From the NCBI GenBank assembly GCA_016709225.1, contig JADJEE010000012.1, forward strand, positions 2,115,630 to 2,179,629: DNA of 64,000 bases, given 5' to 3'. Numbering within the stretch: position 1 is the stretch's first letter; every line of letters starts with the position of its first letter. Source of the DNA: Deltaproteobacteria bacterium. Lineage in GTDB: Bacteria > Myxococcota_A > Polyangia > Nannocystales > Nannocystaceae. Shown piece by piece: positions 7,983 to 55,820 of this stretch. A program made the translations under genes and the position numbers. Under the pieces are notes generated by a model. It was not told where the DNA came from. It did no database searches and worked only from the letters and a program-made list of their open reading frames with translations.

Positions 7983-8590
7983 CGGAGATCGGTGACGAAG
8001 CGCTGCTCGCGGCATGGCAGGCCGGCGACAAGGCTGCCGGCGACGTGCTCGTGCGACGCTACTTCTCGCTGCTGTTCCGATTCCTCAAGCCGCGTGTCGC
8101 CGAGCACACGGCCGACCTCGCGCAGCGCACGTTTCTCGCCATCTCGCAGTCACACGAGCGGATCCCTGCGGGCGTCAGCTTTCGCGCCTGGCTCCTGGGG
8201 GTCGCGCGCAACCAACTGCTCGCGTTCGGGCGCGCGAGCGCAAGGCGCTCTCTCGTGGTCGGCGGCGCGCCGATCTCGGGGGTCGCAGGCGACGCGACGC
8301 CCAGCGAAGTCGTCGCGCACCGCGAGGAGCAGCGCGTCTTGCTTCGCGGACTGCGAACCCTCCCGATCGAGATGCAGCTCGTGATCGAGCTCTTCTACTG
8401 GGAGAACATGTCGCGGGAGGAGATCGCGGCGGTGCTCGGCGTCGAGACCAATACCGTCAAGTCGCGACTGCAGCGCGCCAAGGATCGCCTGCGCGAGCTG
8501 CTCCCGCGGCTCGATCCCGTGACCGGCAGCGTGACGGCGGCCGATCTGGAGCGCTGGGCGCAGTCACTGCGTCCGCCGGATTCGGCCTGA
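7979..8590 (+). CDS. ECF (sigma-70 family, group IV) RNA polymerase sigma factor
   Basis: The sigma-2 (LFRFLKPRV…FRAWLLGVARNQLL) and sigma-4 (EMSREEIAAVLGVETNTVKSRLQRAKDRLRE) regions are present. The GTG start overlaps the kinase stop (GTGA), indicating translational coupling. An aggat RBS-like motif lies upstream. Confidence 0.85.
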   Translation: MTEIGDEALLAAWQAGDKAAGDVLVRRYFSLLFRFLKPRVAEHTADLAQRTFLAISQSHERIPAGVSFRAWLLGVARNQLLAFGRASARRSLVVGGAPISGVAGDATPSEVVAHREEQRVLLRGLRTLPIEMQLVIELFYWENMSREEIAAVLGVETNTVKSRLQRAKDRLRELLPRLDPVTGSVTAADLERWAQSLRPPDSA

Positions 8591-8800
8591 CGCGAGTCCG
8601 TCGACGCCGCGAACCACTGCGCCCCCGTTGCGAGTGTTCTCCTCCGGCCGCACCCGACGGTCGGGACACCGGTCGAACGATCGTCCGCTGCGCGCTACCG
8701 ATCGATCACGCGACCTCGGGTTGCATGCCCCGCGTCGTCCGGCACCCTGTCCGCGTTGTCGAACGAGACCACCGCGGTGCGCAGCCTCGTTCCCGCGCGG

Positions 8801-10273
8801 ATGGACCGCCTGCCGTGGAGCGGGTTCCACTGGCGGGTCGTCATCGCGCTCGGCATCACATGGGTGCTCGACGGCGTCGAGATCGGTCTCGCGAGCGCGA
8901 TCGGTGACACGCTGCGCGACGAGCAGACGCTTGGCCTCGACGCCCAGACCATCGGCTTCAGCGCGGGGTTGTACCTCGCGGGTGAGGTCACCGGCGCACT
9001 GTACTTTGGTCGCAAGGCCGACGAGCTCGGCCGCCGGCGATTGTTCATCGTCACGCTCGCGCTCTACCTGCTCGCGAACGCACTGACGGCGCTGTCGTGG
9101 ACGACGTGGTTCTTCGTCGCGACGCGCTTCTTCGCGGGCATGGGAATCGGCGGCGAGTATGCGGCGATCCACAGTGCGATCGACGAGCTCACGCCCGCGA
9201 AGTACCGAGGCCGGGTCGACATCGCGATCGCCGGCACGTACTGGGGCGGCGCACTCCTGGCCGCGACGGCGCAGCTGCTGCTGCTCGATCCCGAGCTCAT
9301 TCCGATCGACCTCGGCTGGCGCCTCGCGTTGCTGCTCGGTCCCGTGATCGGCCTCGCGATCTGGCCGCTGCGCAGGTTCATCCCCGAGAGCCCGCGCTGG
9401 CAGCTCACACACGGCTACGAACAGGAGGCCGAGGCCACCGTCGCGCGCATCGAGGCCGGCCTGCGCGACGCGGGCGTGCAGCTCGACGACGTCGATCCCG
9501 CGCACGCCATCGTGCTGCAGCGCCACGACCTCGGCCTCGTCGAGGTGGGCAGGATACTCGTGACGAAGTACCTGCGACGGTTGTGGCTCGCCGCGACGCT
9601 GATGATCACGCAGTCGTTCCTCTACAACGCGATCTTCTTCACCTACGTGCTGATCCTGCGCGACTTCTACGACGTGCCGAGCGCATCCGTCGGCTGGTAC
9701 ATCTTCGCGTTCGCCGGCGGGAATCTGCTGGGCCCGTTCGTGCTCGGGCCAGCGTTCGACACCATCGGGCGACGCAAGATGATCGCGGCGACCTACTGCA
9801 CGTCCGCGCTCTTGCTCGCGATCACGGCGTGGCTGTTCGGCCGAGGCATGCTCACGGCGCAATCCCAGACGGTGCTGTGGTGCGTGATCTTCTTCATCGC
9901 ATCGGCCGCGGCATCGTCGGCCTATCTCACCGTGAGCGAGATCTTCCCCGTCGAGATCCGCGCGCAGTCGATCGCACTCGTGTTCGCCGTCGCGCAGGGG
10001 GTCGGCGCCACGGCACCGGCGATCTTCGGGGCAATCATCGAGGCGGCAAAGGACCCCGCGACCGGTGCGGTCGTCTCACGTCTGCCGCTGGCGCTGGCGT
10101 ACCTCGGCAGCGCGGCGATCATGGCCGGTGGTGGCGTGGTGGCGTGGCTGTTCGGCGTCGATGCCGAGCAGCGATCGCTCGAAGACATCGCGCCGCCGAT
10201 CACCTCGGTCGCGGTGTCGCATGCGACAGCCGCCGATGCGCCGGCCGGTCCGCCTCCGCCCGGCACCGTCTGA
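8801..10273 (+). CDS. MFS transporter (metabolite:H+ symporter type, 12 TM)
   Basis: The N-terminal RLPWSGFHWRVVIALGITWVLDG matches the MFS pattern; the cytoplasmic-loop basic motif GRKADELGRRRL matches the MFS G-x-x-x-D-[RK]-x-G-R-[RK] signature. There are about 12 hydrophobic segments. The track start at 8756 is a TTG; the first ATG is at 8801. Confidence 0.85.
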   Translation: MDRLPWSGFHWRVVIALGITWVLDGVEIGLASAIGDTLRDEQTLGLDAQTIGFSAGLYLAGEVTGALYFGRKADELGRRRLFIVTLALYLLANALTALSWTTWFFVATRFFAGMGIGGEYAAIHSAIDELTPAKYRGRVDIAIAGTYWGGALLAATAQLLLLDPELIPIDLGWRLALLLGPVIGLAIWPLRRFIPESPRWQLTHGYEQEAEATVARIEAGLRDAGVQLDDVDPAHAIVLQRHDLGLVEVGRILVTKYLRRLWLAATLMITQSFLYNAIFFTYVLILRDFYDVPSASVGWYIFAFAGGNLLGPFVLGPAFDTIGRRKMIAATYCTSALLLAITAWLFGRGMLTAQSQTVLWCVIFFIASAAASSAYLTVSEIFPVEIRAQSIALVFAVAQGVGATAPAIFGAIIEAAKDPATGAVVSRLPLALAYLGSAAIMAGGGVVAWLFGVDAEQRSLEDIAPPITSVAVSHATAADAPAGPPPPGTV

Positions 10274-43016: not shown

Positions 43017-43073
43017 CCATCCGATCATTTGACCCCGCGGGTCCGGCCGCGCGAGGCTTGGTGCAACCTGGGC

Positions 43074-46000
43074 ATGGACGCACCGCGAACACTGCGATCA
43101 CTCGCGAAGGACCTCGGGCTGGAGTGGATCGACGGGCCCGCGACCGCCACGCTCGAGGCCGACATCGCCCGCGCGAATCGAGCGTTCGACAGGAACGACC
43201 ACGAGAAGATCGGCTTCGGCGCCAGGGATGTCAGCACGGCCGGTGCGCTCGTGGGCGCGCTCGCGTCGCTGGTGCGCAAGCCCAACCTCGCGCCGATGCT
43301 CGCGCGCGTGCGTGCTCGCGTCGACGAGGTCACGCCGGCCGAGGGCGAGCCCACCATCGACGTCGGCGTCGGCGAAGCCATCGCCCGGGCCGCCCGCGAC
43401 GACACCGACCGCGTCTTCGACGACCTCTTCCTCGCCCGCGCGCTCCTCGAGCAACCCGGCGAGCTCGTGCACGGCGGTCTCGCGCCGTTCGGGCTCTCGG
43501 CCGAGGCGCTACGGCGCGGGCTGGACGATGCACTCGCGCTCGAGCTCGACGGCGAACGCGATCGACCGCTCGCCGACAACCAACGCGAGCTCGACGACGC
43601 GGTGTTCCGTGCCGCCGGCCGTCGGCTCGGCGACCTCGGCGAGGCCGCGCGGTGGCTCGAGCGCGGCCACGACGGCGACGAGGCGATGTACGCCGCCGGT
43701 AGCCCGAGCGCGCGACGCATCGGCTCGCACCGCGCGCTGCGACGACACGCGCGCAGCAACGGTGAGCTCCGCCTGGTGCCGCGGTTGCTGGCCGATTTCG
43801 CGTTCTCGGACGCGGCCCGCGAGGTGCTGGGGCTGGCCGATCGCTTACGCGGCGATGCTCGACACGTCCACGTCGAGCACCTGATGGTCGCGCTCTACGA
43901 CGCCAAGGCGAGTCCCGCCCGCGCGGCGTTCGATCGAGCCGGCGTCTCGCGCGACGCCATGCTCGCGCGGCTGCACGGCAGCGAGCTCGCCGAGCAGCGC
44001 TCGGCAACCTACGTCGCCAGCGAGCGCGTACCGCCGCTGTCGTCCCATGCCGCGCTCGCGCTGGTCCACGCCGCGCGGCACGCCGCGAACCGCGGCGATG
44101 CGACCCTCCGCGGTCGCGATCTGCTCACCGGCGTGTTCGCGGTCGAGGGCTGCCACATCGTCGAGAAGTTCACCGACGTCCGCGTCGCGCTGGCCAGCGG
44201 ACCCGCGCCCGCGCGCGAGCCCGACGAGACTCGGACCCCCGCCGCGCCGCAGCATCCGATGGTCGTCGCGTCGAGCGTGGCGCGCTTCGGCGGCGACGGC
44301 CTCGACGGCCCCGACGTGCTCGGCTTCACGCTCGAGGTCGATGCGCTCGCGCGCTTGATTGCCTCGGAGGGCATCGATCCGCCGCTGTCGATCGGGCTCT
44401 TCGGTGAGTGGGGCTCGGGCAAGAGCTACTTCATGCGACGCCTGCGCGAGCGGATCGAGCAGCTCGCGGCCGCCACCCGCCGTCGCCGTGAGCGCGACGA
44501 CGTGCCGCCACCGGCGTACGTGGGCCACGTGGTGCAGGTCGAGTTCAACGCGTGGAACTACGTCGAGGTCGATCTGTGGGCGAGCCTGGTCGCGCACATC
44601 TTCGATCGGCTGCACGCCCACGTGATCGACGAGCCCGGCCTCGAGCAGCGCCAGTGGGAGAGCTTGCTGCACCGCCTCGACGACGCCGAGAACCGCCGCC
44701 ACGATGCCAAGCAGGCGCTCGAGCTGGCGCAAGCGCGGCTCGACATGCGCCGCCGCGAGCAGGCGGCCCGCGAGCGCACGCTCGCCTATCAGATCGAGAT
44801 CCTCCGCCGCCACGCCAAGCTCAAGCGACCGATCGCGGAGATCGAGGGCACGCTCGGCATCGCGGCCGCGCGCGAGTTGTGGGACGCGATCGTGCTCCGC
44901 AGCAGCCGCGCGACCGCGGTCATCAAGGCCATGCCCGACTCGCTGCGGGCGGCACGATCGCTGTTCACCGGTCCGGCAGCGTGGTGGCTCATGGCTGCGA
45001 TCGTGCTCGTGATCGGCGGCTTGCTGCTGGCGCGCCAGCTCGAGTGGCTGCCCGATCTCGCGGCGGTGGCCGCCGCGATGCCGCTGCTGCTGGCGTGGGT
45101 GCGCAAGGCGCTCGGCCGTAGCGACGCGCTGCTCGCCGCCATCGAGGCGTTCCAAGAGGGGCTGCTCGAGCTCGAGCGCTCGAAGCAGGAGGTCGATCGT
45201 GAGGCACTCGAGCGCCTGCGCGACGACGCGATGGCGGTCGAACAGGCCCGCGCCGAGCACGACGCCGAGCGGGCGCGCGTCGACTCGTTGCGCGACGAGA
45301 TCGCGCGGCTGTACCCCGGTGAGCAGCTCGCCGATTTCCTGGCCGATCGCGCGGCCAGCAGCGACTACCGCCGCCACCTCGGCCTGCCCGCGCTGGTGCG
45401 ACGCGACTTCGAGCGGCTCGGCCGACTGGTGCGGCCGCACACCCACCGCCTACCACGCGATCACGTGACCGGCCTCGCACTGGCCCAGGCGCCGCAGCAC
45501 CTACTCGACATGCTGCATCGCCTCGAGCCCGACGCGACCGAACCGTTCGAGGTCGTGCGAGTCGAGCGGTCCGGCGACCGCGTGCGAGCGTTCGCACCCG
45601 ACGGGCGCTGCGCGATCTTCAGTTGCTGCGAGCCGATCGAGGGTGACGAGCACCCTGCGCCCTACGAGATCGATCTGCGCTCCGTCGACGACGAGCCGCT
45701 CGGGGGCCCCCGCGACGAGCTGGGCCGCCTGGGTCGGCGCGTGCCGGAGCGCCTGGTCGACGGCCTGCGACCCGCGATGATTCCCGCGCGTCTCGCCGAG
45801 CTGCTGCGCCGCGATGCGCCGCTGCGGGGCGAGCGACTCGTGCACGACACCACCCTCGACCGCTGGGTGCTGACCGATCACGACGGCGCCCGCCGGGTCG
45901 AGATCGGCTTCGACGGCGAGCTCGCGATCGTCGAGATCGGTTGGCCGATGCACCCGACGATCGAGCGCATCGTGCTGTACATCGATGATCTGGATCGCTG

Positions 46001-47123
46001 CCCGCCCGAGCGCGTGGTCGAGGTGCTGGGCGCGGTGCACCTGCTGCTGGCGTTCCCGCTGTTCGTGGTGGTGGTGGCCGTCGACGAGCGCTGGCTGGTG
46101 GGCTCACTCGAGGATCAGCACGCCCAGCAGCTGCGACCCGCCGCGGCCCCGAACGCCGGCAACACGCTCGCGATGGGCGCGTTCGACGGTCTCGCGACCC
46201 CCCGCGACTACCTCGAGAAGATCTTCCAGATCCCGTACTGGGTGCCGCGCATGACCACCGCGTCGGCGCGCGACCTCATCGCCGACATGGTCGCGCAGGG
46301 CGAGCGCATCGAGCTGCCGCGCGCCGACCCGACCCGCGTGGTGTGGGTGGATCGCCCGCGACCGAGCTCGACGCCGCCGCCCGCGGACGGCCCCCTGCCC
46401 GAGGCCGAGACCGCGCCGGCCGAGGTCCCGGGCCCCGACGTGGAGGACGAGCCGAGCGGTGGCAGCGTCCCGGGACCCGACGTCGAGTCCAGCGAGGGTG
46501 ACGACGGCGGCATGCCGGGCTTCATGAGCCTCGCCGGTACCGCGGTGAGCAACGCGGTCGAGGCGATCTCGGAGGCGTTCTCCGGCGCCGCCGAGCCCAC
46601 CGCCGCGCCGACGACGGACGACGAGTCGGGCGCCGACGACGAGCTGCTCCGCGTGCAGCCGATCTCGATCGGCGAGCGCGAGCGACTGGCGCTGCAGGCC
46701 CTGGTGCCGTTGGTGCAGAAATCGCCGCGCGCGGTGAAGCGCTTCGTCAACGTCTATCGCGTCATCCGCAGCACGCTCGGTGATCAGGCCGACGTCTTCA
46801 TGCAGCACGACGACGACGAGGTGCCGTTCGGACCCGCGACCGTGCTCATCGCGATGATGGTCGGCGACCCCGAGGCCGGCGCCTCGTTGATCGCCGCGCT
46901 CGAGCAGGACGGTGACGACGACGGCTCGCTGCACGACAGCATGCAGCGGTGGATCGACGCCAAGCCGACGCTCGGCGAGGCCACGAGCATGGCGCTCACG
47001 CTCGCGCTGACTCGCGCCGGCTGGGCTCGGCAGCGTCGGGTCGATCTGCGGGGCGTGGTCGGTCGCGTGCGCCGCTTCTCGTTCGGCGCGCGCAACCTCG
47101 GCGTCGGCCAGCAGCGACACTGA
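43074..47123 (+). CDS. KAP-family P-loop NTPase with a roughly 430-aa N-terminal region of Clp-N-like helical repeats and an acidic low-complexity C-terminal extension
   Basis: The Walker A is LFGEWGSGKSYFM, the Walker B is IVLYIDDLDRC, and the KAP C-terminal motif is KRFVNVYRV. TM helices inserted in the NTPase fold are AAWWLMAAIVLVIGGLLLARQ and LPDLAAVAAAMPLLLAWV, which is the KAP hallmark. The N-terminal repeats, e.g. HVHVEHLMVALYDAKASPARAAFDRAGVSRDAMLARL and ALALVHAARHAANRGDATLRGRDLLTGVFAVEGCHIVEKF, resemble the ClpA/B N-domain repeat. The track start is a TTG at 43029; the first ATG is at 43074. Confidence 0.8.
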   Translation: MDAPRTLRSLAKDLGLEWIDGPATATLEADIARANRAFDRNDHEKIGFGARDVSTAGALVGALASLVRKPNLAPMLARVRARVDEVTPAEGEPTIDVGVGEAIARAARDDTDRVFDDLFLARALLEQPGELVHGGLAPFGLSAEALRRGLDDALALELDGERDRPLADNQRELDDAVFRAAGRRLGDLGEAARWLERGHDGDEAMYAAGSPSARRIGSHRALRRHARSNGELRLVPRLLADFAFSDAAREVLGLADRLRGDARHVHVEHLMVALYDAKASPARAAFDRAGVSRDAMLARLHGSELAEQRSATYVASERVPPLSSHAALALVHAARHAANRGDATLRGRDLLTGVFAVEGCHIVEKFTDVRVALASGPAPAREPDETRTPAAPQHPMVVASSVARFGGDGLDGPDVLGFTLEVDALARLIASEGIDPPLSIGLFGEWGSGKSYFMRRLRERIEQLAAATRRRRERDDVPPPAYVGHVVQVEFNAWNYVEVDLWASLVAHIFDRLHAHVIDEPGLEQRQWESLLHRLDDAENRRHDAKQALELAQARLDMRRREQAARERTLAYQIEILRRHAKLKRPIAEIEGTLGIAAARELWDAIVLRSSRATAVIKAMPDSLRAARSLFTGPAAWWLMAAIVLVIGGLLLARQLEWLPDLAAVAAAMPLLLAWVRKALGRSDALLAAIEAFQEGLLELERSKQEVDREALERLRDDAMAVEQARAEHDAERARVDSLRDEIARLYPGEQLADFLADRAASSDYRRHLGLPALVRRDFERLGRLVRPHTHRLPRDHVTGLALAQAPQHLLDMLHRLEPDATEPFEVVRVERSGDRVRAFAPDGRCAIFSCCEPIEGDEHPAPYEIDLRSVDDEPLGGPRDELGRLGRRVPERLVDGLRPAMIPARLAELLRRDAPLRGERLVHDTTLDRWVLTDHDGARRVEIGFDGELAIVEIGWPMHPTIERIVLYIDDLDRCPPERVVEVLGAVHLLLAFPLFVVVVAVDERWLVGSLEDQHAQQLRPAAAPNAGNTLAMGAFDGLATPRDYLEKIFQIPYWVPRMTTASARDLIADMVAQGERIELPRADPTRVVWVDRPRPSSTPPPADGPLPEAETAPAEVPGPDVEDEPSGGSVPGPDVESSEGDDGGMPGFMSLAGTAVSNAVEAISEAFSGAAEPTAAPTTDDESGADDELLRVQPISIGERERLALQALVPLVQKSPRAVKRFVNVYRVIRSTLGDQADVFMQHDDDEVPFGPATVLIAMMVGDPEAGASLIAALEQDGDDDGSLHDSMQRWIDAKPTLGEATSMALTLALTRAGWARQRRVDLRGVVGRVRRFSFGARNLGVGQQRH

Positions 47124-47131
47124 CGCTGGCG

Positions 47132-47653
47132 TCACGCGCCCGGATCGAGCTCGCCGGGTGGCGGATCGGTGCCCGGCGGCTTGCTCGGCCCGCCTTCGCT
47201 GGGATCGAGCTGACCGGGGGCGCCGCCGCCGGGCGATGGCACCTCGACGGTGTGCAGCTGACACCCGCCGCAACTCTGGCCGTCGTCGGAGATGCCCGAG
47301 CACTGACCGCTGCAGGTGAGCACGCGGTCGCTGCCGCCCGCCTCGCAGGCCTGGGCCTCGCTGCACCCACTGGCGCAGCGACACTGGAAGCCGGTCACGC
47401 CGTCGTCGAGGTAGACGACGCCGTTCTTCGGATCGATTTCGTAGTCGACGCCATCGGCGAGCACGATCTCGGTGGTGGACTTGACGGCGTAGGTCTTGGT
47501 CTGGGAGCCGACCTGCACGACGTCGTCGTCGCTGCACTCGGTGACGTCGTCGAGCTTGCCGCCGCGTAGCTCGAGACTGTCGTCGTCGTCGAGCGCCGCG
47601 CAGCCGAGGCCGCCCAAGAACATCGAGAGGAGGATCGAGGTGGTGTAGCGCAT
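47132..47653 (-). CDS. small Cys-rich secreted lipoprotein (paralog A) with a Pro/Gly/Asp-rich C-terminal tail
   Basis: The ATG at 47653 gives MRYTTSILLSMFLGGLGCAALDDDDS (lipobox). The core QCRCASGC…C…LTCSGQCSGISDDGQSCGGCQLH has 8 conserved Cys. The tail is GQLDPSEGGPSKPPGTDPPPGELDPGA. Confidence 0.6.
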   Translation of the reverse strand: MRYTTSILLSMFLGGLGCAALDDDDSLELRGGKLDDVTECSDDDVVQVGSQTKTYAVKSTTEIVLADGVDYEIDPKNGVVYLDDGVTGFQCRCASGCSEAQACEAGGSDRVLTCSGQCSGISDDGQSCGGCQLHTVEVPSPGGGAPGQLDPSEGGPSKPPGTDPPPGELDPGA

Positions 47654-47669
47654 GGGTGCTGGCTCCGCT

Positions 47670-48179
47670 TCAGAACGTGGGGTCGACCGAGCCGGGTCCG
47701 GGGTCGCTGCCCGGCGGCTTGGGGTCGGGGGTGTTGGTGGGGTCGAGCTGGCCCGAGCCGGGATCGGCCGGATTGGGCGGTGGATCGGCGCGGTGCCAGC
47801 CGCAGCCCCAGCACGGCCGACCATCGCTGCTGATGGTGCCGTCGCAGGTGCCGGTGCAGATGGCGTCGATCGGGCCGGCGCTCACCTGGCAAACGCTGCC
47901 ACCGCAGCCGCCGTCGCAGCGGCAGACGTACGTCGCCGCCTTGTCGATCGTCACGGTGGTGCCGCCCTTGTCGAGCTCGATCTCGTCGCCGAGCGACTCC
48001 AACCGCGATGGCGAGCTGATGCGCGCGTATTCGTCTTCGTAGGTCTGATACGCCGCGCCCGGATCGACGCACTCGAGCGCCTCCCCGCGGAACTCGTCTG
48101 CATCGCCGCGACTGCGTGCGACCGGATCGCAGCCGATCGCGAGCGCCAGCACCCCCCACGTCCATGGTCGTCGATTCAT
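47670..48179 (-). CDS. small Cys-rich secreted lipoprotein (paralog B)
   Basis: The N-terminus is MNRRPWTWGVLALAIGCD (lipobox). The core YVCRCDGGCGGSVC…ICTGTCDGTISSDGRPCWGCGWH aligns with paralog A. The tail is GQLDPTNTPDPKPPGSDPGPGSVDPTF. Confidence 0.6.
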   Translation of the reverse strand: MNRRPWTWGVLALAIGCDPVARSRGDADEFRGEALECVDPGAAYQTYEDEYARISSPSRLESLGDEIELDKGGTTVTIDKAATYVCRCDGGCGGSVCQVSAGPIDAICTGTCDGTISSDGRPCWGCGWHRADPPPNPADPGSGQLDPTNTPDPKPPGSDPGPGSVDPTF

Positions 48180-48276
48180 GCGCAGCTAGACCCGGCGGCG
48201 AGGATTTCGATCGTGCAAAGTGCCCGCGACCCGCGGGGCCGAGAGAACCTTTGCCGCCAGCCGCTGTCCTCGCTTC

Positions 48277-49371
48277 GTGCGTCTTCGCCTGGCCACCTCG
48301 ATGCTCCTGCTGCCGTGCTGCACGCCCGTCGTGGCCGCCCCCCGGTCGACCACCCCCGCGCAGACCACTCCCGCGCAGACCACTCCCGCGCAGACCGAGG
48401 CTGCTCCGATCGCGGCCGCCGACGACGACCCCGCGACGCCGCGCTGGTGCATCCCGAGCGCTCCACCGCCGACGCCACCCGGTCCGAGCGTCGCCCACTA
48501 CGATTGCCAGCGTCACGCCACCGCGGTGGTCCGCGCGGTCGATGCCCGACTGCGCAAGCTGTGGACTCCCGCGCGCTCGCCCAGCCGGCTCGAGATCCAT
48601 CGCACCTGCGATCCGCTCGCCGACACGATCACCCGCGTGGTGATCGAGAGTGGCTACGGCCACGGCTTCAGCCTGCACCTGTGGCAGCTCGAGCGCACCG
48701 ACGACCGCGACTGGGCGGTATCGCGGCTCGACTACCGCGGCGACAGTGCCGATGGCGTCGCGAGCGTCGGTCGCGTCGGCGCACGCGTGATCGATCCGCT
48801 CCTCGCGGCCTCGCGCGTCGCGTTGGTGTCCGACGCGTTCGAGGTCACGCTGCCGTCGGAGGGACTCAGCCTGACCGCGGCGATGGGCTCCGGCGACTTC
48901 CATCGCGTCGTGCGCCTCGAAGACGACGACGGCGACGTGCTCGAGCGCCGCTTCACCGGCTACCCCGGCAACGGCCTCGAGGAGGCGCCCGTGGTGGTCG
49001 CCAGCGACGCGCTGCTCGAGGTGCTCGAGGCGGTGCCGCTCGCCGAGCGCCCCGCCGAGCCAGTCGATCGCGGGTTCTTCGTCGAGCGCTACGCCGCCGC
49101 CGCGCCCCACTTCGACGACGAGTTCTTCTGGTGGGTCACCGAGCGCTACATCGTGATGGCGCGCTCGTTCGGGCAGGCCTCGCTGATCCCGAGCCTGGTC
49201 GAGCGCGCCACCAAGCCCGGCGAGCACTCGGTCGCGCGCGCGCGTGAGACCGCCGTCGCCGCGCTCGCGGCGGTGACGGGCCACGACCTGCGTGTCGGTG
49301 CCGACGGCAAGCCCCGCGCGCTCGAGCTCGCGGCGGCCGACTACGCCGCGGCATGCCTGCCGGTTCGCTAG
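48277..49371 (+). CDS. hypothetical exported protein with a (TTPAQ)x3 repeat
   Basis: A GTG at 48277 gives VRLRLATSMLLLPCCTPVVAAP (signal-like). Codon usage upstream of this, within the track ORF from 48220, is poor. A globular 300-aa domain has no recognised motif. Confidence 0.55.
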   Translation: MRLRLATSMLLLPCCTPVVAAPRSTTPAQTTPAQTTPAQTEAAPIAAADDDPATPRWCIPSAPPPTPPGPSVAHYDCQRHATAVVRAVDARLRKLWTPARSPSRLEIHRTCDPLADTITRVVIESGYGHGFSLHLWQLERTDDRDWAVSRLDYRGDSADGVASVGRVGARVIDPLLAASRVALVSDAFEVTLPSEGLSLTAAMGSGDFHRVVRLEDDDGDVLERRFTGYPGNGLEEAPVVVASDALLEVLEAVPLAERPAEPVDRGFFVERYAAAAPHFDDEFFWWVTERYIVMARSFGQASLIPSLVERATKPGEHSVARARETAVAALAAVTGHDLRVGADGKPRALELAAADYAAACLPVR

Positions 49372-53368: not shown

Positions 53369-53710
53369 ATGGCCGCCACCGTGATGACCCTGCTGGTCGC
53401 GTTCCTCCACATCGTCTTCATGGTGTTCGAGACGTTCCTGTGGACGACGCCCGGCGTGCGACGCCGCTTCGGCCAGAGCGCAGAACAAGCCGAGGCCACC
53501 CGCGTGCTCGCGGCCAACCAGGGCGTGTACAACGGCGCGCTCGCAGGCGCGCTGGTGTGGGCCACCACCGCCGGCGACGTGCCGGCGACCCGCGTGCTGC
53601 TCGGCTTCGTGATCGTGGTCGGGCTGTACGGCGGCTTCACGGCCAAGCGCAGCATCTTGGTGCTGCAGGCGCTGCCGGCCGCGATCGCGCTGGCGCTGAC
53701 GCTGGTCTGA
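53369..53710 (+). CDS. DUF1304 family small membrane protein
   Basis: 113 aa with four hydrophobic segments (MAATVMTLLVAFLHIVFMVFETFLW…). A TetR-DUF1304 pairing is a recurrent arrangement. Confidence 0.7.
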   Translation: MAATVMTLLVAFLHIVFMVFETFLWTTPGVRRRFGQSAEQAEATRVLAANQGVYNGALAGALVWATTAGDVPATRVLLGFVIVVGLYGGFTAKRSILVLQALPAAIALALTLV

Positions 53711-53798
53711 CGAGCGCAGCCGCGAGCCTGCTCGCGACGGCCCAAATCGGTCCGCGGCTTGCCGCCCATGGCCACCGCGTTATCTCTCGATCGCGGCC

Positions 53799-55820
53799 AT
53801 GGCATCACTCGTCCAGCTCCAGCGCCGCCCCGGCGATTCCCCCGCGTCGTCACGTCCGGCCAAGGTGCTGCTCGTCTCGCCGCGCTACAGCTCGTCGTAC
53901 TTCCCGATTGGCTTGGCCTACGTCTCTTCGTACATCCGCCAGTGCGGACACGAGGTCGTGGCGTGCAACCTCAACCACCACGATCACGACGCAGGTCGGG
54001 CCGAGCTGGCCCGGCTGCTGCGCGAGCACGCATTCGACGCCATCGGCATCACCGGGCTCACCGTCGCGTTCAACGCGATCGAGTCGTTGATCGAGTTCCT
54101 GCGCCCCCGCTGCGCTGCGCCCATCGTGCTGGGCGGCGGCATCACCTCGTGCGAGAGCGAGCTGGTGATGCGGACGCTGCGACCGGACTACATGGTCGTG
54201 AGCGAGGGTGAGCTGATCTTCCGCGATCTGCTGGCCGTGATCACCGCTGCGGGCGACCCCGCGAGCGTCGCCGGCATCTGGTACTGGGACGGCGAGACCC
54301 CCCGCGCGACCGGTGACGGGCCCTCGATCGCCAACCTCGACGAGCTGCCGTTCCCCGACCTCGAGCTCTTCGGCATCGCGCGCGAGATGGAGCTGCAGTC
54401 GACGATGCAGGTCACGTATCACGAGACCCGCTTTCACGCCGGCAAGACCGTGCCCATCACCGCCAGCCGCTCGTGCCCGTTTCGCTGCACGTTCTGCTAC
54501 CACGCCGGCATGGGCAAGTACCGGCGACACTCGATGGAGAACGTCGTCGATCACATCGAGTCGATCCTCGCCCGTACCGACGCCACCCACATCTCGATCT
54601 ACGACGAGCTGTTCTCGGCCAACAAGAAGCGCATCGTCGAGTTCTGCGACCTCCTCGAGCAGCGCGGCATCCAGGTCTCGTGGTTCTGCCAGCTGCGCGT
54701 CGATCAGCTCGACCAGGATCTGCTCCACCGCATGCGCAGGGCCGGCTGCCGGCACATCTCGTTCGGCTTCGAGAGCGGCAGCGATACCGTGCTCGACAGC
54801 ATGGACAAGAAGATCACCGCCGCGCAGATCGCCCGCGCGGTGGAGCTCACGCGCAACGCGAAGATCGGCATCCAGGCCAACTTTCTGTTCGGCGACCCGG
54901 CCGAGACCGAGCAGACGCTGCAGGAGTCGCTGGCGTTCCAGCGCGAGCACGACCTCATGTTCGTCGACTGGTCGGCGGTGATCCCCTACCCCGGCACGCG
55001 GCTATACGCCCGCGCGCTGGAGCGGGGGCTGATCGGCGATCGCGTCGAGTTCATCCGCAGCATGTGCGACATCTCGAGCTACCTGTGGCGCGGGCAGGTC
55101 AACCTCACCGAGCTATCCGACGAGCGCTTCCTCGAGCACTACGTCGCGCTGCGCGAGCTGAACGACCGCAACCACCGCACGCGACCGGCGATCGTCCGCC
55201 ACGGCCGTGCGACCGGCCCCCAGCACTCGTGCATCACCGTCGAGTGCCCCAGCTGCAACCACGCCGAGACGCTCGAGCTGCCGTATCCGCCGGGGCCCGG
55301 CGACACGCCGATCTCGACGCGGGCGATCGTCGGCGTGCAGGGCTACAACATCGTGTGCGATGCGTGCAATCGCAAGATGCACCTCGCGGCGCGACGCATC
55401 CCCCACGTCGCGTCGTTCTACGCCGACTTCCAGGCCGCGCTCGATCGCTGCAAGGCCGCAAGCACGCCGGTGGTGATCGTGCCGGCGATGGACCGCTACT
55501 TCGGCGTGTTCGCGCAGGATGTGGATCTCGAGGGGCTCGACGTGGTGGCCGCGCTCGACTGGCGCGCGCACCGGGCCGGCGCCGCCTTCATGGGCGTCAC
55601 CGTCGAGAGCCTCGACCACGCGCATGTGCAGCGTCACCGTGACGCCACCTTCGTGGTGCTGCCGTGGGTCGAGTCGGACGATGCGGTCGCGCTGCTGCGC
55701 GCCGCCGGCGTACAGGATGACGCGATCCTTTGTTGGACCGATCGCTTCGCCACGCACACCCGGCCGCAGCCACGCCTGCTGGCGCGCGCTTCTGGGGCTC
55801 GCGCGGCCAGCGGGTGCTAA
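53799..55820 (+). CDS. B12-binding-domain radical SAM enzyme with a roughly 250-aa C-terminal extension containing a CxxC…CxxC zinc-ribbon
   Basis: The N-terminal cobalamin-binding Rossmann-like region is VLLVSPRYSSSYFPIGLAYVSSYIRQCGHEVVACNL. The radical SAM cluster motif is SRSCPFRCTFCYH (CxxxCxxC). The C-terminal CITVECPSCNH…YNIVCDACNRKMH is a zinc-ribbon. Confidence 0.85.
   Translation: MASLVQLQRRPGDSPASSRPAKVLLVSPRYSSSYFPIGLAYVSSYIRQCGHEVVACNLNHHDHDAGRAELARLLREHAFDAIGITGLTVAFNAIESLIEFLRPRCAAPIVLGGGITSCESELVMRTLRPDYMVVSEGELIFRDLLAVITAAGDPASVAGIWYWDGETPRATGDGPSIANLDELPFPDLELFGIAREMELQSTMQVTYHETRFHAGKTVPITASRSCPFRCTFCYHAGMGKYRRHSMENVVDHIESILARTDATHISIYDELFSANKKRIVEFCDLLEQRGIQVSWFCQLRVDQLDQDLLHRMRRAGCRHISFGFESGSDTVLDSMDKKITAAQIARAVELTRNAKIGIQANFLFGDPAETEQTLQESLAFQREHDLMFVDWSAVIPYPGTRLYARALERGLIGDRVEFIRSMCDISSYLWRGQVNLTELSDERFLEHYVALRELNDRNHRTRPAIVRHGRATGPQHSCITVECPSCNHAETLELPYPPGPGDTPISTRAIVGVQGYNIVCDACNRKMHLAARRIPHVASFYADFQAALDRCKAASTPVVIVPAMDRYFGVFAQDVDLEGLDVVAALDWRAHRAGAAFMGVTVESLDHAHVQRHRDATFVVLPWVESDDAVALLRAAGVQDDAILCWTDRFATHTRPQPRLLARASGARAASGC

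What the first reader, a model, noticed from the sequence alone, without database searches (positions are those of the whole stretch)
43029..47123. 1350-aa KAP-family NTPase with Clp-N-like N-terminal repeats and an acidic C-terminal tail
The Walker A/B motifs, the two TM helices inserted inside the P-loop fold, and the KRFVNVYRV motif make the KAP assignment solid. The roughly 430 residues before the Walker A are unusual. They contain at least two pairs of 40-45-aa helical repeats whose pattern looks like the ClpA/ClpB N-terminal substrate/adaptor-binding repeat. Examples are hydrophobic-x-x-HLMVAL…G-x-S-x-D-x-hydrophobic-L and ALALVHAARHAANRG…GRDLLTGVF. The C-terminal 300 aa adds a Pro/Glu/Asp-rich disordered segment before the final conserved block. 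KAP NTPases are poorly characterised and repeatedly turn up in conflict/defence-like contexts, and a Clp-N-like targeting module fused to one is not an architecture I recognise. Convergent to this gene sit two tandem paralogous Cys-rich lipoprotein genes and an exported hypothetical. The locus 41.7-49.4 kb may therefore be a functional unit rather than a lone gene. Codon usage looks native, not recently transferred.
Basis: partly seen in the sequence, partly recalled or inferred. Interest (0 to 1): 0.6.

Follow-up and report, generated by a model that had tools for sequence, protein, structure and literature searches.

The report
Membrane KAP NTPase with Clp-N domain
This gene encodes a large membrane-anchored ATPase of the KAP family carrying the substrate/adaptor-binding domain normally found on Clp chaperones; the fusion is real and never studied, but it recurs in over a hundred metagenomic protein clusters and is not tied to the neighbouring lipoprotein genes.

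Summary
The gene (window 43074-47123, +, 1349 aa from the ATG) is a KAP-family P-loop NTPase: Pfam 5.7e-25, Walker A at 444, Walker B at 966, and a two-helix membrane hairpin (635-676) flanked by long helices and inserted between the Walker motifs. Its closest solved fold is RdrA of the RADAR phage-defence system.

Residues about 245-375 are a true Clp_N domain. A family profile hits ClpC N-domains at 1.8e-14, and the model gives TM 0.73 to ClpC1-NTD. A second, upstream copy (about 96-230) is only weakly supported.

The architecture is not unique. At least 109 of 148 listed cluster representatives with this Clp_N subtype are KAP fusions. They span several phyla, and some carry extra N-terminal TIR or trypsin domains.

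The two Cys-rich lipoproteins are real paralogues. However, they and the adjacent hypothetical gene are absent from orthologous Nannocystaceae loci, where the KAP gene directly abuts the SDR and QueA genes. The proposed functional unit is therefore not supported.

Most likely this is a stand-alone, STAND-like membrane switch of the conflict/defence type, with Clp_N as sensor or autoinhibitory adaptor. That mechanism is inferred, not shown. It is a new variant of a known kind, of moderate interest.

The parts
43074..47123 (+). Complete gene, 1349 aa plus stop. The exact protein is NCBI MBK6922433.1, deposited as 'hypothetical protein'.
   Evidence: The ORF is and the translation. The start codon is supported by orthologue N-termini. 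The exact-sequence look-up is. dN/dS against the 94% orthologue is 0.03-0.74 by segment, so the gene is under purifying selection.
43074..43358 (+). N0, residues 1-95: a helical, fast-evolving N-terminal segment with no recognisable domain.
   Evidence: No Pfam hit. pLDDT is mostly below 50. dN/dS is 0.74, against 0.03 for the core. It is found only in Nannocystaceae orthologues.
43359..43805 (+). N1, residues 96-244: a probable degenerate Clp_N-like helical domain followed by a small connector. Not proven.
   Evidence: The orthologue profile hits the E. coli ClpB N-domain 1khy in register across both repeats, at E 0.0099 and 0.017. hhalign against the N2 family gives E 0.003 but probability 10%. 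Pfam Clp_N appears in 1 of 6 orthologues at E 0.06. The N2 profile gives no significant hit. pLDDT is 55-70.
43806..44198 (+). N2, residues 245-375: a bona fide Clp_N domain made of two four-helix repeats.
   Evidence: Pfam Clp_N scores 17.4 bits in the full protein and 22.0 bits as an isolated segment, against a cut-off of 20.7. Orthologues score 27.8-31.7 bits. The family profile A3 hits ClpC N-domains at 1.8e-14. The model has pLDDT 80-87 and eight helices. Foldseek gives ClpC1-NTD at E 1.4e-4 and TM 0.73.
44199..44288 (+). Pro/Ala-rich linker, residues 376-405.
   Evidence: Pro is 20%. pLDDT is below 50.
44289..44633 (+). First half of the KAP P-loop core, residues 406-520. Walker A GEWGSGKS is at 444-451 (nt 44403-44426).
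   Evidence: Pfam KAP_NTPase, motif scan, strands and helices at pLDDT 87-95, and full occupancy in 45 homologues.
44634..44975 (+). Long helical arm leading to the membrane, residues 521-634.
   Evidence: The model shows helices at about 523-579 and 584-618. The arm is conserved across the family.
44976..45101 (+). Transmembrane hairpin, residues 635-676, with a short loop.
   Evidence: Kyte-Doolittle 19-residue peaks are 2.35 at 635 and 1.66 at 658. The segments are helical in the model. Lys/Arg residues flank both sides, so both termini are inferred to be cytoplasmic (sequence).
45102..45443 (+). Returning helical stalk, a roughly 93-residue continuous helix, plus the conserved LYPGEQLADFLADRA...YRRHLGLPALVRRDFERL block. 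Residues 677-790.
   Evidence: Model helix at about 669-761. The block is invariant among orthologues and fully occupied in homologues.
45444..45953 (+). Beta-rich insertion domain specific to the Nannocystaceae clade, residues about 791-960, sitting just before the Walker B strand.
   Evidence: Occupancy is below 5% in 45 other homologues. pLDDT is 82-94, with two four-stranded meanders. There is no Pfam or PDB sequence match.
45954..46313 (+). Second half of the KAP P-loop core, residues 961-1080. Walker B IVLYIDDLD is at 966-974 (nt 45969-45995).
46314..46643 (+). Acidic Pro/Glu/Asp/Gly-rich disordered linker, residues 1081-1190.
   Evidence: Net charge is -20. pLDDT is below 50. It is poorly conserved. 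dN/dS is 0.39.
46644..47120 (+). Conserved C-terminal helical domain of KAP, residues 1191-1349, including SPRAVKRFVNVYRV.
   Evidence: End of the Pfam KAP profile. P, R, K, R, N and Y of the motif are invariant or near-invariant across 50 homologues. dN/dS is 0.04.

Best explanation
What it is (shown). This is a stand-alone, inner-membrane-anchored KAP-family P-loop NTPase. The order of parts is:
- a fast-evolving N-terminal segment;
- a probable degenerate Clp_N-like domain;
- a canonical Clp_N domain;
- a Pro-rich linker;
- the KAP NTPase.

The NTPase core is split between Walker A and Walker B by a long helical arm, a two-helix membrane hairpin, a returning helical stalk, and a clade-specific beta-rich domain. 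It belongs to a widespread, unstudied KAP subfamily in which Clp_N (1-3 copies) sits directly N-terminal to the NTPase. In some relatives a TIR, trypsin-like, SH3 or possibly beta-propeller (sub-threshold hit) module precedes the Clp_N.

How it most likely works (inferred). It acts as a STAND-like molecular switch of the biological-conflict or phage-defence type.
1. At rest, the cytoplasmic Clp_N domain docks on the NTPase or its helical arms and keeps it inactive. The ClpC N-domain does this with AAA1 and the coiled-coil M-domain.
2. A protein or peptide ligand, such as an invader protein or a tagged or misfolded host protein, binds the Clp_N groove and releases the block.
3. NTP-dependent ring assembly or conformational change follows, as in the heptameric KAP relative RdrA.
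4. The change is transmitted through the helical stalk to the membrane hairpin.
5. The hairpin perturbs membrane integrity or ion balance, as reported for PifA and Tmn.

Relatives that carry TIR or protease domains would deploy those as additional effectors.
For: Identity:
- Pfam KAP_NTPase at 5.7e-25, motifs and TM hairpin, and a confident core model.
- Clp_N is supported.

Family architecture:
- 184 clusters carry this Clp_N subtype, and at least 109 of 148 listed are KAP fusions.
- Relatives carry tandem Clp_N copies.
- TIR-Clp_N-KAP, trypsin-Clp_N-KAP and SH3-KAP forms exist, plus a sub-threshold beta-propeller hit ahead of Clp_N-KAP. Other members of the KAP clade carry LRR, WD40, tyrosinase or FGE-sulfatase domains.
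- The family is spread sporadically across Myxococcota, Deinococcota, Gemmatimonadota, Acidobacteriota, Chloroflexota, Actinomycetota, Planctomycetota, Verrucomicrobiota and Proteobacteria.
- Neighbouring genes vary, so the gene stands alone.
- The N-terminus evolves fastest: dN/dS is 0.74 and 0.24, against 0.03 for the core.

Literature:
- Single-gene KAP NTPases protect E. faecalis from phage and need Walker B (PMC13552941).
- KAP replaces STAND NTPases in effector-NTPase-sensor conflict systems (PMC8195603).
- RdrA is a heptameric ATPase (PMC9994260).
- PifA causes membrane leakage, and Tmn forms a membrane decamer that exports Mg2+ (PMC13001434).
- The ClpC N-domain is an allosteric repressor released by ligands (PMC12583610).
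Against: - No function was tested, so every mechanistic step is an analogy.
- The locus is not a defence island. Neighbours are RND efflux, DUF2167, a deacetylase, a permease, SDR and QueA. PADLOC finds nothing nearby apart from a generic radical-SAM hit 6.6 kb away.
- The gene keeps its position next to SDR-QueA across Nannocystaceae lineages whose proteins are only 58-60% identical. That pattern is more typical of vertically inherited housekeeping genes than of mobile defence genes.
- The contexts of three more distant relatives also show no defence clustering.
- This particular protein has no recognised effector domain.
- Contact between Clp_N and the helical arms was not modelled, because the full-length protein exceeds the predictor's size limit.
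- PADLOC and NCBIfam hits to QatA and PifA are partial and far below family thresholds.
Confidence: 0.45

Rival explanations
1. Housekeeping membrane-associated NTPase. The protein is a vertically inherited regulator or scaffold. It uses Clp_N to bind unfolded, aggregated or tagged cytoplasmic proteins, or a Clp adaptor. It uses NTP hydrolysis to assemble or disassemble a membrane-proximal complex. It has no role in conflict.
For: - Position next to SDR-QueA is conserved across Nannocystaceae at 58-60% protein identity.
- Composition is native.
- Purifying selection on the core is strong, with dN/dS 0.03-0.04.
- No mobile or defence genes lie in the surroundings.
- In every characterised setting, Clp_N domains bind substrates or adaptors of proteostasis machines (PMC12583610).
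- KAP NTPases were originally proposed to regulate the assembly of membrane-associated complexes, as quoted in PMC13001434 and PMC13552941.
Against: - Relatives in the same clade are fused to TIR, trypsin-like, LRR, WD40 and FGE-sulfatase modules. Those are typical of immune or conflict proteins.
- Distribution across phyla is sporadic.
- Every KAP member with experimental data acts in phage defence (PifA, QatA, RdrA, EF_KAP), except eukaryotic Kidins220.
- The N-terminal 95 residues evolve almost neutrally.
Confidence: 0.25
2. The KAP NTPase works together with the two convergent Cys-rich lipoproteins and the adjacent hypothetical protein as one envelope-spanning system covering 41.7-49.4 kb.
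For: - The genes are adjacent, with only 8 bp between the KAP stop and the lipoprotein A stop.
- The arrangement is kept in four contigs of the 94% orthologue.
- A 46% orthologue also has a convergent Cys-rich secreted protein downstream.
Against: - In L006-L009 (58-60% identity) the KAP gene is followed directly by the SDR and, in L007-L009, by QueA. tblastn finds no lipoprotein A, lipoprotein B or hypothetical homologue in any of these loci. The three genes are therefore a lineage-specific insertion.
- The Cys-rich protein in L010 is unrelated to them, with best E 0.011 when composition correction is switched off.
- The genes are convergent, so they are not co-transcribed.
- Only a loop of about 4 residues of the KAP protein would reach the periplasm.
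- The 41.7-43.0 kb stretch is an amino-acid permease gene.
- The lipoproteins have no PADLOC, Pfam or NCBIfam hit.
Confidence: 0.04
3. The Clp_N module links the NTPase to Clp proteolysis. It acts as a decoy or docking site for ClpS-type or MecA-type adaptors, or for phospho-arginine-tagged proteins. This would bring substrates to the membrane or titrate adaptors away from ClpA or ClpC.
For: - The domain is closest to ClpC N-domains.
- The Glu equivalent to ClpC E32, in the pArg2 pocket, is conserved as E268. It is nearly invariant in the 41-member family alignment (PMC12583610).
Against: - The second pocket's Glu (E106 equivalent) is replaced by Arg348, and the neighbouring His by Asp349.
- No arginine-kinase or adaptor gene is nearby.
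- No binding test is possible with these tools.
- The arginine kinase McsB was not looked for in these genomes.
Confidence: 0.1

Closest known systems
RdrA, the ATPase of the RADAR anti-phage system (PDB 8fnt, 8fnu; PMC9994260)
   Different: RdrA is soluble, has no membrane hairpin and no Clp_N domain, and works with the deaminase RdrB. No deaminase gene lies nearby here. PADLOC gives no RdrA hit at E<=1, and the aligned residues are only 13% identical.
Single-gene KAP P-loop NTPase defence proteins (EF_KAP and three gut-metagenome examples; PMC13552941)
   Same: [quoted passage not shown] Defence requires Walker B and the fused region.
   Different: Their accessory regions are C-terminal and unrelated, and none is reported to carry Clp_N. 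They were found next to small serine recombinases, and none is present here. Similarity to them was not tested directly.
PifA (F plasmid) and QatA (QatABCD)
   Same: Both are KAP-family NTPases. PADLOC gives QatA at 1.5e-14 and PifA at 2.4e-11. NCBIfam gives QatA at 68.8 bits.
   Different: The hits cover only short stretches around the Walker motifs. The NCBIfam QatA cut-off is 600 bits. No QatB, QatC or QatD genes are present. According to PMC13001434, PifA lacks membrane helices.
N-terminal domain of ClpC, ClpB and ClpA Hsp100 unfoldases (Pfam PF02861)
   Same: Residues 245-375 share the double four-helix repeat fold and a significant profile match. As in Hsp100 proteins, the domain directly precedes a P-loop NTPase that has a long helical insertion.
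   Different: The attached NTPase is KAP, not AAA+ Clp. There are no AAA, AAA_2 or ClpB_D2 hits. One of the two pArg-pocket glutamates is replaced by Arg. The helical insertion carries a membrane hairpin.
Tmn, a YobI-family membrane P-loop NTPase (PMC13001434)
   Same: It has two membrane helices inserted in a P-loop domain and long helical arms proposed to act as sensors. It forms a membrane decamer and defends against phage by ion export.
   Different: It belongs to a different NTPase family. No YobI or Tmn hit appears in Pfam or PADLOC. Its sensor arms are C-terminal ARM/HEAT repeats, not Clp_N.
Effector-NTPase-sensor conflict systems of multicellular bacteria (PMC8195603, PMC7159879)
   Same: In those systems KAP can replace the STAND NTPase. 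Variable N-terminal effectors such as TIR and trypsin are present, as in this protein's relatives. ClpN repeats are noted there fused to vWA components of ternary systems.
   Different: A Clp_N-KAP fusion is not described in those papers. This protein has no FGS or lectin sensor and no recognised effector.

Membership tests
KAP P-loop NTPase (Pfam PF07693) | Family model scored above the curated threshold | tested here: met
   88.6 bits against a cut-off of 20, E 5.7e-25, in two stretches. Orthologues score 86-95 bits.
KAP P-loop NTPase (Pfam PF07693) | Walker A GxxxxGK[ST] and Walker B hhhhDD | tested here: met
   GEWGSGKS at 444 and IVLYIDD at 966. Both are invariant in 50 homologues.
KAP P-loop NTPase (Pfam PF07693) | Transmembrane helices inserted within the NTPase domain, between Walker A and Walker B | tested here: met
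   Hydrophobic helices lie at 635-653 and 658-676. They are helical in the model, between the core strands at about 486-492 and about 965-971. Membrane insertion itself was not tested.
KAP P-loop NTPase (Pfam PF07693) | Fold similarity to a solved family member | tested here: met
KAP P-loop NTPase (Pfam PF07693) | NTP binding and hydrolysis | not testable with these tools
   Requires biochemistry.
Clp_N domain (Pfam PF02861), residues 245-375 | Family model above the gathering score | tested here: met
   The full-length scan gives 17.4 bits, below the 20.7 cut-off. The isolated segment gives 22.0 bits. Orthologues at the same position give 27.8-31.7 bits. 33 of 41 family members match.
Clp_N domain (Pfam PF02861), residues 245-375 | Profile-level homology to solved Clp N-domains | tested here: met
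   Profile A3 against PDB gives ClpC at 1.8e-14, ClpB at 3.5e-12 and ClpA at 1e-4. All 60 listed of the 77 hits are Clp, Hsp100 or ClpT N-domains.
Clp_N domain (Pfam PF02861), residues 245-375 | Two tandem four-helix repeats with the Clp N-domain fold | tested here: met
   The model shows eight helices between 246 and 375, at pLDDT 80-87. Foldseek gives ClpC1-NTD at TM 0.73 and E 1.4e-4, and almost all of the top 50 hits are Clp N-domains. The tool does not report which query residues aligned. Assigning the match to 245-375 is an inference from model confidence.
Clp_N domain (Pfam PF02861), residues 245-375 | Ligand-pocket glutamates of ClpC (E32, E106) | tested here: inconclusive
   The E32 equivalent is kept as E268. 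The E106 equivalent is Arg348 (PMC12583610). Binding was not tested.
Clp_N-like domain, residues 96-230 (second copy) | Significant sequence or fold match to Clp_N | tested here: inconclusive
   ClpB-N 1khy is the top hit at E 0.0099 and 0.017, in register. hhalign against the N2 family gives E 0.003 with probability 10%. Pfam Clp_N appears in 1 of 6 orthologues at E 0.06. The N2 profile scores -1.8 bits. pLDDT is 55-70.
Clp/Hsp100 AAA+ unfoldase | AAA+ modules (AAA, AAA_2, ClpB_D2-small) following the N-domain | tested here: not met
   No such Pfam hit. Only AAA_22 appears, at E 0.029 and below threshold. The NTPase is KAP.
QatA (QatABCD defence) | NCBIfam equivalog score and the partner genes QatB, QatC and QatD | tested here: not met
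   68.8 bits against a cut-off of 600. The neighbours are a permease, lipoproteins, SDR and QueA. QueA is not a QueC-family QatC.
RADAR (RdrA/RdrB) | An adjacent RdrB adenosine deaminase and an RdrA model hit | tested here: not met
   No deaminase lies in the locus. No RdrA model appears among PADLOC hits at E<=1.
PifA | Full-length similarity to PifA | tested here: not met
   The PADLOC PifA hit is best over residues 414-466 only, at E 2.4e-11.
STAND NTPases (NACHT, NB-ARC, Avs) | A STAND-type NTPase domain model | tested here: not met

The most novel reading that the evidence does not exclude
Clp_N-KAP proteins form a widespread, uncharacterised class of single-gene, membrane-anchored immune sensors. 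In this reading the Hsp100 N-domain has been co-opted as the sensing and autoinhibitory module. It would hold a ring-forming KAP NTPase off through contacts with the helical arms inserted in the NTPase, mirroring ClpC N-domain/M-domain repression. It would release the NTPase on binding an invader or damage-derived protein, and the membrane hairpin (or TIR/protease domains in relatives) would then execute the response. This would be an independent re-invention of the Hsp100 layout of N-domain, P-loop and inserted coiled coil, now serving immunity.
Probability: 0.25. Interest if true: 0.65.

Novelty: new variant of a known kind. Interest (0 to 1): 0.4.

Why it matters
KAP NTPases were predicted two decades ago to act in membrane-linked defence. 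Only recently have RADAR's RdrA and single-gene KAP proteins been shown to protect against phage, and how they sense infection is unknown.

This subfamily has a well-understood protein- and peptide-binding domain, Clp_N, placed immediately before the NTPase. That gives a concrete, testable handle on sensing and autoinhibition:
- the domain can be deleted or mutated;
- it can be swapped;
- it can be used as bait.

It would also extend the known roles of the Clp N-domain beyond Hsp100 unfoldases and the small stand-alone ClpT and ClpC2 proteins.

For this particular locus the practical outcome is more modest. The gene should be annotated as a Clp_N-domain KAP-family NTPase, and the neighbouring lipoproteins should not be treated as its partners.

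Tried and rejected
1. Lipoprotein linkage. I compared orthologous loci in L005-L012 by tblastn with all window neighbours. The lipoproteins and the hypothetical gene are absent from L006-L009. The Cys-rich protein downstream in L005/L010 is unrelated. Rejected.
2. QatA, PifA or RADAR membership. Only partial, sub-threshold hits were found and no partner genes are present. Rejected.
3. Defence-island context. PADLOC on nine neighbours found nothing, apart from a generic radical-SAM hit at 53700-55817. Pfam on the flanks of five distant relatives and three further contigs showed heterogeneous genes. There is no support for an island, and none for a conserved partner.
5. Sequence search of the KAP part against PDB returned nothing.
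6. Insertion domain 791-960. The Pfam and PDB profile searches gave only chance hits. The bile-acid receptor at E 0.027 is a helical protein matched to a predicted beta-rich domain.
7. Proving the upstream copy N1 is Clp_N. Four independent weak signals all point to Clp_N, but none is significant.
8. Promoter and terminator scan of 40.4-49.6 kb found no sites. This is uninformative at 72% GC.
9. Literature search for 'KAP NTPase' with 'Clp' or 'Clp_N' found no relevant paper. The original KAP paper (Aravind et al. 2004) is not held in the library. I therefore could not check whether it mentions this fusion.
10. Look-up of the Corallococcus trypsin-Clp_N-KAP gene context found no record.

Full report
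**The gene**

The ORF listed at 43029-47123 (+) starts at a TTG. The first ATG is at 43074 and gives 1349 aa. Four orthologues begin at the same Met and share P4, T6 and L7. Third-position GC is 0.91, within the 0.86-0.93 range of neighbouring genes. The exact protein is deposited in NCBI from MAGs as 'hypothetical protein [Deltaproteobacteria bacterium]' (MBK6922433.1). The nearest genome hits are Nannocystaceae MAGs of the Myxococcota.

**KAP assignment**

- Pfam KAP_NTPase matches in two stretches at E 5.7e-25 and 88.6 bits, against a cut-off of 20.
- Walker A (GEWGSGKS) is at 444, Walker B (IVLYIDD) at 966, and KRFVNVYRV at 1222.
- These residues are invariant or nearly so in a 50-sequence alignment.
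- Two hydrophobic helices at 635-653 and 658-676 lie between the Walker motifs.
- An AlphaFold2 model of residues 405-1349, built from 50 sequences, has mean pLDDT 75 and pTM 0.67.
- The model shows a confident P-loop core interrupted after the strand at about 486-492. The interruption consists of long helices, the hairpin, and a continuous returning helix of roughly 93 residues.
- Lys and Arg residues flank both ends of the hairpin, and its loop is about 4 residues long. I therefore infer that both termini are cytoplasmic.
- Sequence search and Foldseek against PDB found nothing.

**The N-terminal 430 residues**

In the full-length scan, Pfam Clp_N scores only 17.4 bits, below the 20.7 cut-off. 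Stronger evidence comes from several directions.

- Orthologues at 46-60% identity score 27.8-31.7 bits at the homologous position.
- The isolated segment of this protein scores 22.0 bits.
- A profile of the five orthologous N-termini was searched against 1.84 billion cluster representatives. It found 184 clusters at E<=1e-3, and nearly all matched through positions 247-372.
- A 41-member alignment of that segment shows the consensus VHMEHLL...GPT... / ...SRHLLYGALSV..C.
- That alignment hits ClpC, ClpB and ClpA N-domains in PDB at up to 1.8e-14.
- 33 of its 41 members match Pfam Clp_N.
- The model of residues 1-430 has pLDDT 80-87 across 245-375, with eight helices.
- Its Foldseek hits are almost exclusively Clp N-domains, led by ClpC1-NTD at TM 0.73 and E 1.4e-4.

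Residues 245-375 are therefore a genuine Clp_N domain.

The upstream block (about 96-230) is much weaker.

- The only PDB family that its profile hits is the E. coli ClpB N-domain. The hit is in register over both repeats, at E 0.0099 and 0.017.
- hhalign against the N2 family gives E 0.003 but probability 10%.
- One of six orthologues touches Pfam Clp_N at E 0.06.
- The N2 profile does not detect it.
- pLDDT is 55-70.

Relatives do carry two or three clearly recognisable tandem Clp_N domains. A degenerate second copy is therefore plausible, at about two chances in three, but it is not shown. Residues 1-95 have no detectable relatives outside the clade.

**Other segments**

- Residues about 791-960, immediately before the Walker B strand, are present only in the Nannocystaceae orthologues. 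Occupancy is below 5% in 45 other homologues.
- This segment is predicted with pLDDT 82-94 as a beta-rich domain. It has no Pfam or PDB sequence match.
- The Pro/Glu/Asp-rich stretch (1081-1190, net charge -20) is disordered in the model and poorly conserved.
- That stretch is an internal linker. A conserved helical KAP C-terminal domain follows it (1191-1349).

**Selection**

I compared the gene with the 94%-identical orthologue by segment.

| Segment | dN/dS |
|---|---|
| KAP N-terminal core with helical arms and hairpin (406-790) | 0.03 |
| KAP C-terminal domain (1191-1349) | 0.04 |
| Walker B core (961-1080) | 0.10 |
| Clp_N (N2) | 0.11 |
| Insertion domain | 0.13 |
| N1 | 0.24 |
| Acidic linker | 0.39 |
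| N-terminal 95 residues | 0.74 |

The gene is functional, and its N-terminus evolves fastest. This rests on a single pairwise comparison.

**How common is the architecture**

- Of the 148 listed representatives other than the two orthologues, 109 also match the KAP part of this protein.
- Precomputed Pfam labels show PF02861+PF07693 for ten homologues.
- Some relatives add an N-terminal TIR (P0017, P0018, P0060) or a trypsin-like domain (P0016, P0025). P0163 has a sub-threshold beta-propeller hit ahead of its Clp_N, and P0139 is an SH3-KAP protein with no Pfam Clp_N hit.
- Other members of the same KAP clade carry LRR, WD40, tyrosinase or FGE-sulfatase domains.
- Clp_N-containing matches occur in Deinococcales, Alphaproteobacteria, Kapaibacteriota and Longimicrobiales genomes as well as in Myxococcota.

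The fusion is thus recurrent and already captured by automatic annotation. I found no paper that discusses it. The library lacks the original KAP paper.

**Neighbourhood**

The window's gene order is:
1. RND pump
2. DUF2167 (-)
3. polysaccharide deacetylase
4. amino-acid permease
5. KAP
6. lipoprotein A (-)
7. lipoprotein B (-)
8. a 357-aa hypothetical (+)
9. SDR
10. QueA

The two lipoproteins are paralogues, at 34% identity and E 1e-15 to 5e-18, with 10 Cys each. The same order is found in four contigs of the 94% orthologue, which is uninformative.

- In loci whose KAP proteins are 58-60% identical (L006-L009), the KAP gene is followed directly by the SDR (67-68% identical). In L007-L009 QueA follows at 67% identity, while the L006 contig ends within the SDR.
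- tblastn finds no trace of the lipoproteins or the hypothetical gene in these loci.
- Upstream genes differ between orthologues. One has a sigma factor and an ABC-2 permease. Another has a rotamase.
- A 46% orthologue has an unrelated 26-Cys secreted protein downstream.
- More distant relatives have heterogeneous flanks: RF3, a LOG-like protein, MacB, a deaminase, DinB, HTH-M78, DUF58, Amidase_2, and flagellar genes.
- PADLOC finds no defence protein among nine neighbours here, apart from a generic radical-SAM hit.

The gene stands alone. The three-gene block at 47.1-49.4 kb is a lineage-specific insertion, not a partner. The locus is not a defence island.

**Mechanism**

What is shown is the anatomy: cytoplasmic Clp_N domain(s), a linker, and a KAP NTPase whose core is split by helical arms and a membrane hairpin.

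What is inferred is how it works. Four published findings guide the inference.
- KAP relatives with data act in phage defence. RdrA forms heptameric rings (PMC9994260).
- Single-gene KAP proteins protect E. faecalis and need Walker B and their fused region (PMC13552941).
- PifA causes membrane leakage, and the analogous YobI-family Tmn forms a membrane decamer that exports Mg2+ (PMC13001434).
- KAP can replace STAND NTPases in effector-NTPase-sensor systems (PMC8195603).

In ClpC, the N-domain is an allosteric repressor. It contacts AAA1 and the coiled-coil M-domain and is released by pArg-substrates, MecA or cyclic peptides (PMC12583610).

The layout here has an N-domain, a P-loop and an inserted helical arm. 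By analogy, Clp_N would sense a protein ligand and gate NTP-driven assembly. The hairpin would be the output in this protein, and TIR or protease domains would be the output in relatives. Of the two ClpC pArg-pocket glutamates, the first is kept (E268) and the second is Arg348. The ligand is therefore probably not pArg in the ClpC manner.

Against the conflict reading stand the stable syntenic position in Nannocystaceae, the housekeeping surroundings, and the absence of any recognised effector. A housekeeping membrane NTPase that binds unfolded or tagged proteins remains a serious rival.

**Verdict**

The protein is a member of a recurrent but unstudied Clp_N-KAP subfamily, which makes it a new variant of a known kind. 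Interest is moderate, at 0.4. It would rise if the Clp_N domain proves to be the sensing or autoinhibitory module of a membrane immune switch.

Noticed in passing
window 47132-49371: A three-gene block lies between the KAP gene and the SDR-QueA pair. It holds two paralogous exported Cys-rich lipoproteins (10 Cys each, with Pro-rich 'PG.LDP' C-termini) and a 357-aa hypothetical protein. It is present only in this lineage and its 94% relatives, and absent from other Nannocystaceae loci. None of the three proteins has a Pfam, NCBIfam or PADLOC hit.
   Followed up: partly
window 45444-45953 (KAP residues about 791-960): A clade-specific insertion of about 170 residues sits just before the Walker B strand. 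It is confidently modelled (pLDDT 82-94) as two four-stranded beta meanders plus helices. It has no sequence match in Pfam or PDB. It could be a lineage-specific sensor or regulatory domain.
   Followed up: partly
L011 and L012, about 8001-10196: Two other Nannocystaceae/Deltaproteobacteria MAGs carry a KAP gene 60% identical over the core. It appears to lack both the Clp_N N-terminus (the match starts at residue 387) and the 791-960 insertion. The modules therefore come and go within the family.
   Followed up: no
window 43074-43358 (KAP residues 1-95): The N-terminal 95 residues have dN/dS 0.74 against the 94% orthologue, compared with 0.03 for the NTPase core. The extreme N-terminal motif M..P.TL..A..L.L..D is nevertheless conserved in all orthologues.
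   Followed up: partly
L010 12085-12852 (-) and L005 6554-7033 (-): The 46% orthologue also has a convergent exported Cys-rich protein (26 Cys) whose stop overlaps the end of the KAP gene. It is unrelated in sequence to the window's lipoproteins. This is probably a coincidence in Cys-rich-protein-rich myxobacterial genomes.
   Followed up: partly
window 53700-55817: A B12-binding radical-SAM protein hits the PADLOC candidate-system model PDC-M51A at 2.2e-18. This is probably generic radical-SAM similarity.
   Followed up: no
L057 6837-11570 (Falsiroseomonas bella): A KAP homologue (P0030), an SRAP-domain gene and a small hypothetical gene sit inside an otherwise contiguous flagellar gene cluster. 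This looks like an insertion.
   Followed up: no
proteins P0052, P0056-P0058, P0060, P0063: Relatives carry two or three clearly recognisable tandem Clp_N domains ahead of the KAP domain. Short proteins (147-350 aa) made only of this Clp_N subtype also exist.
   Followed up: partly
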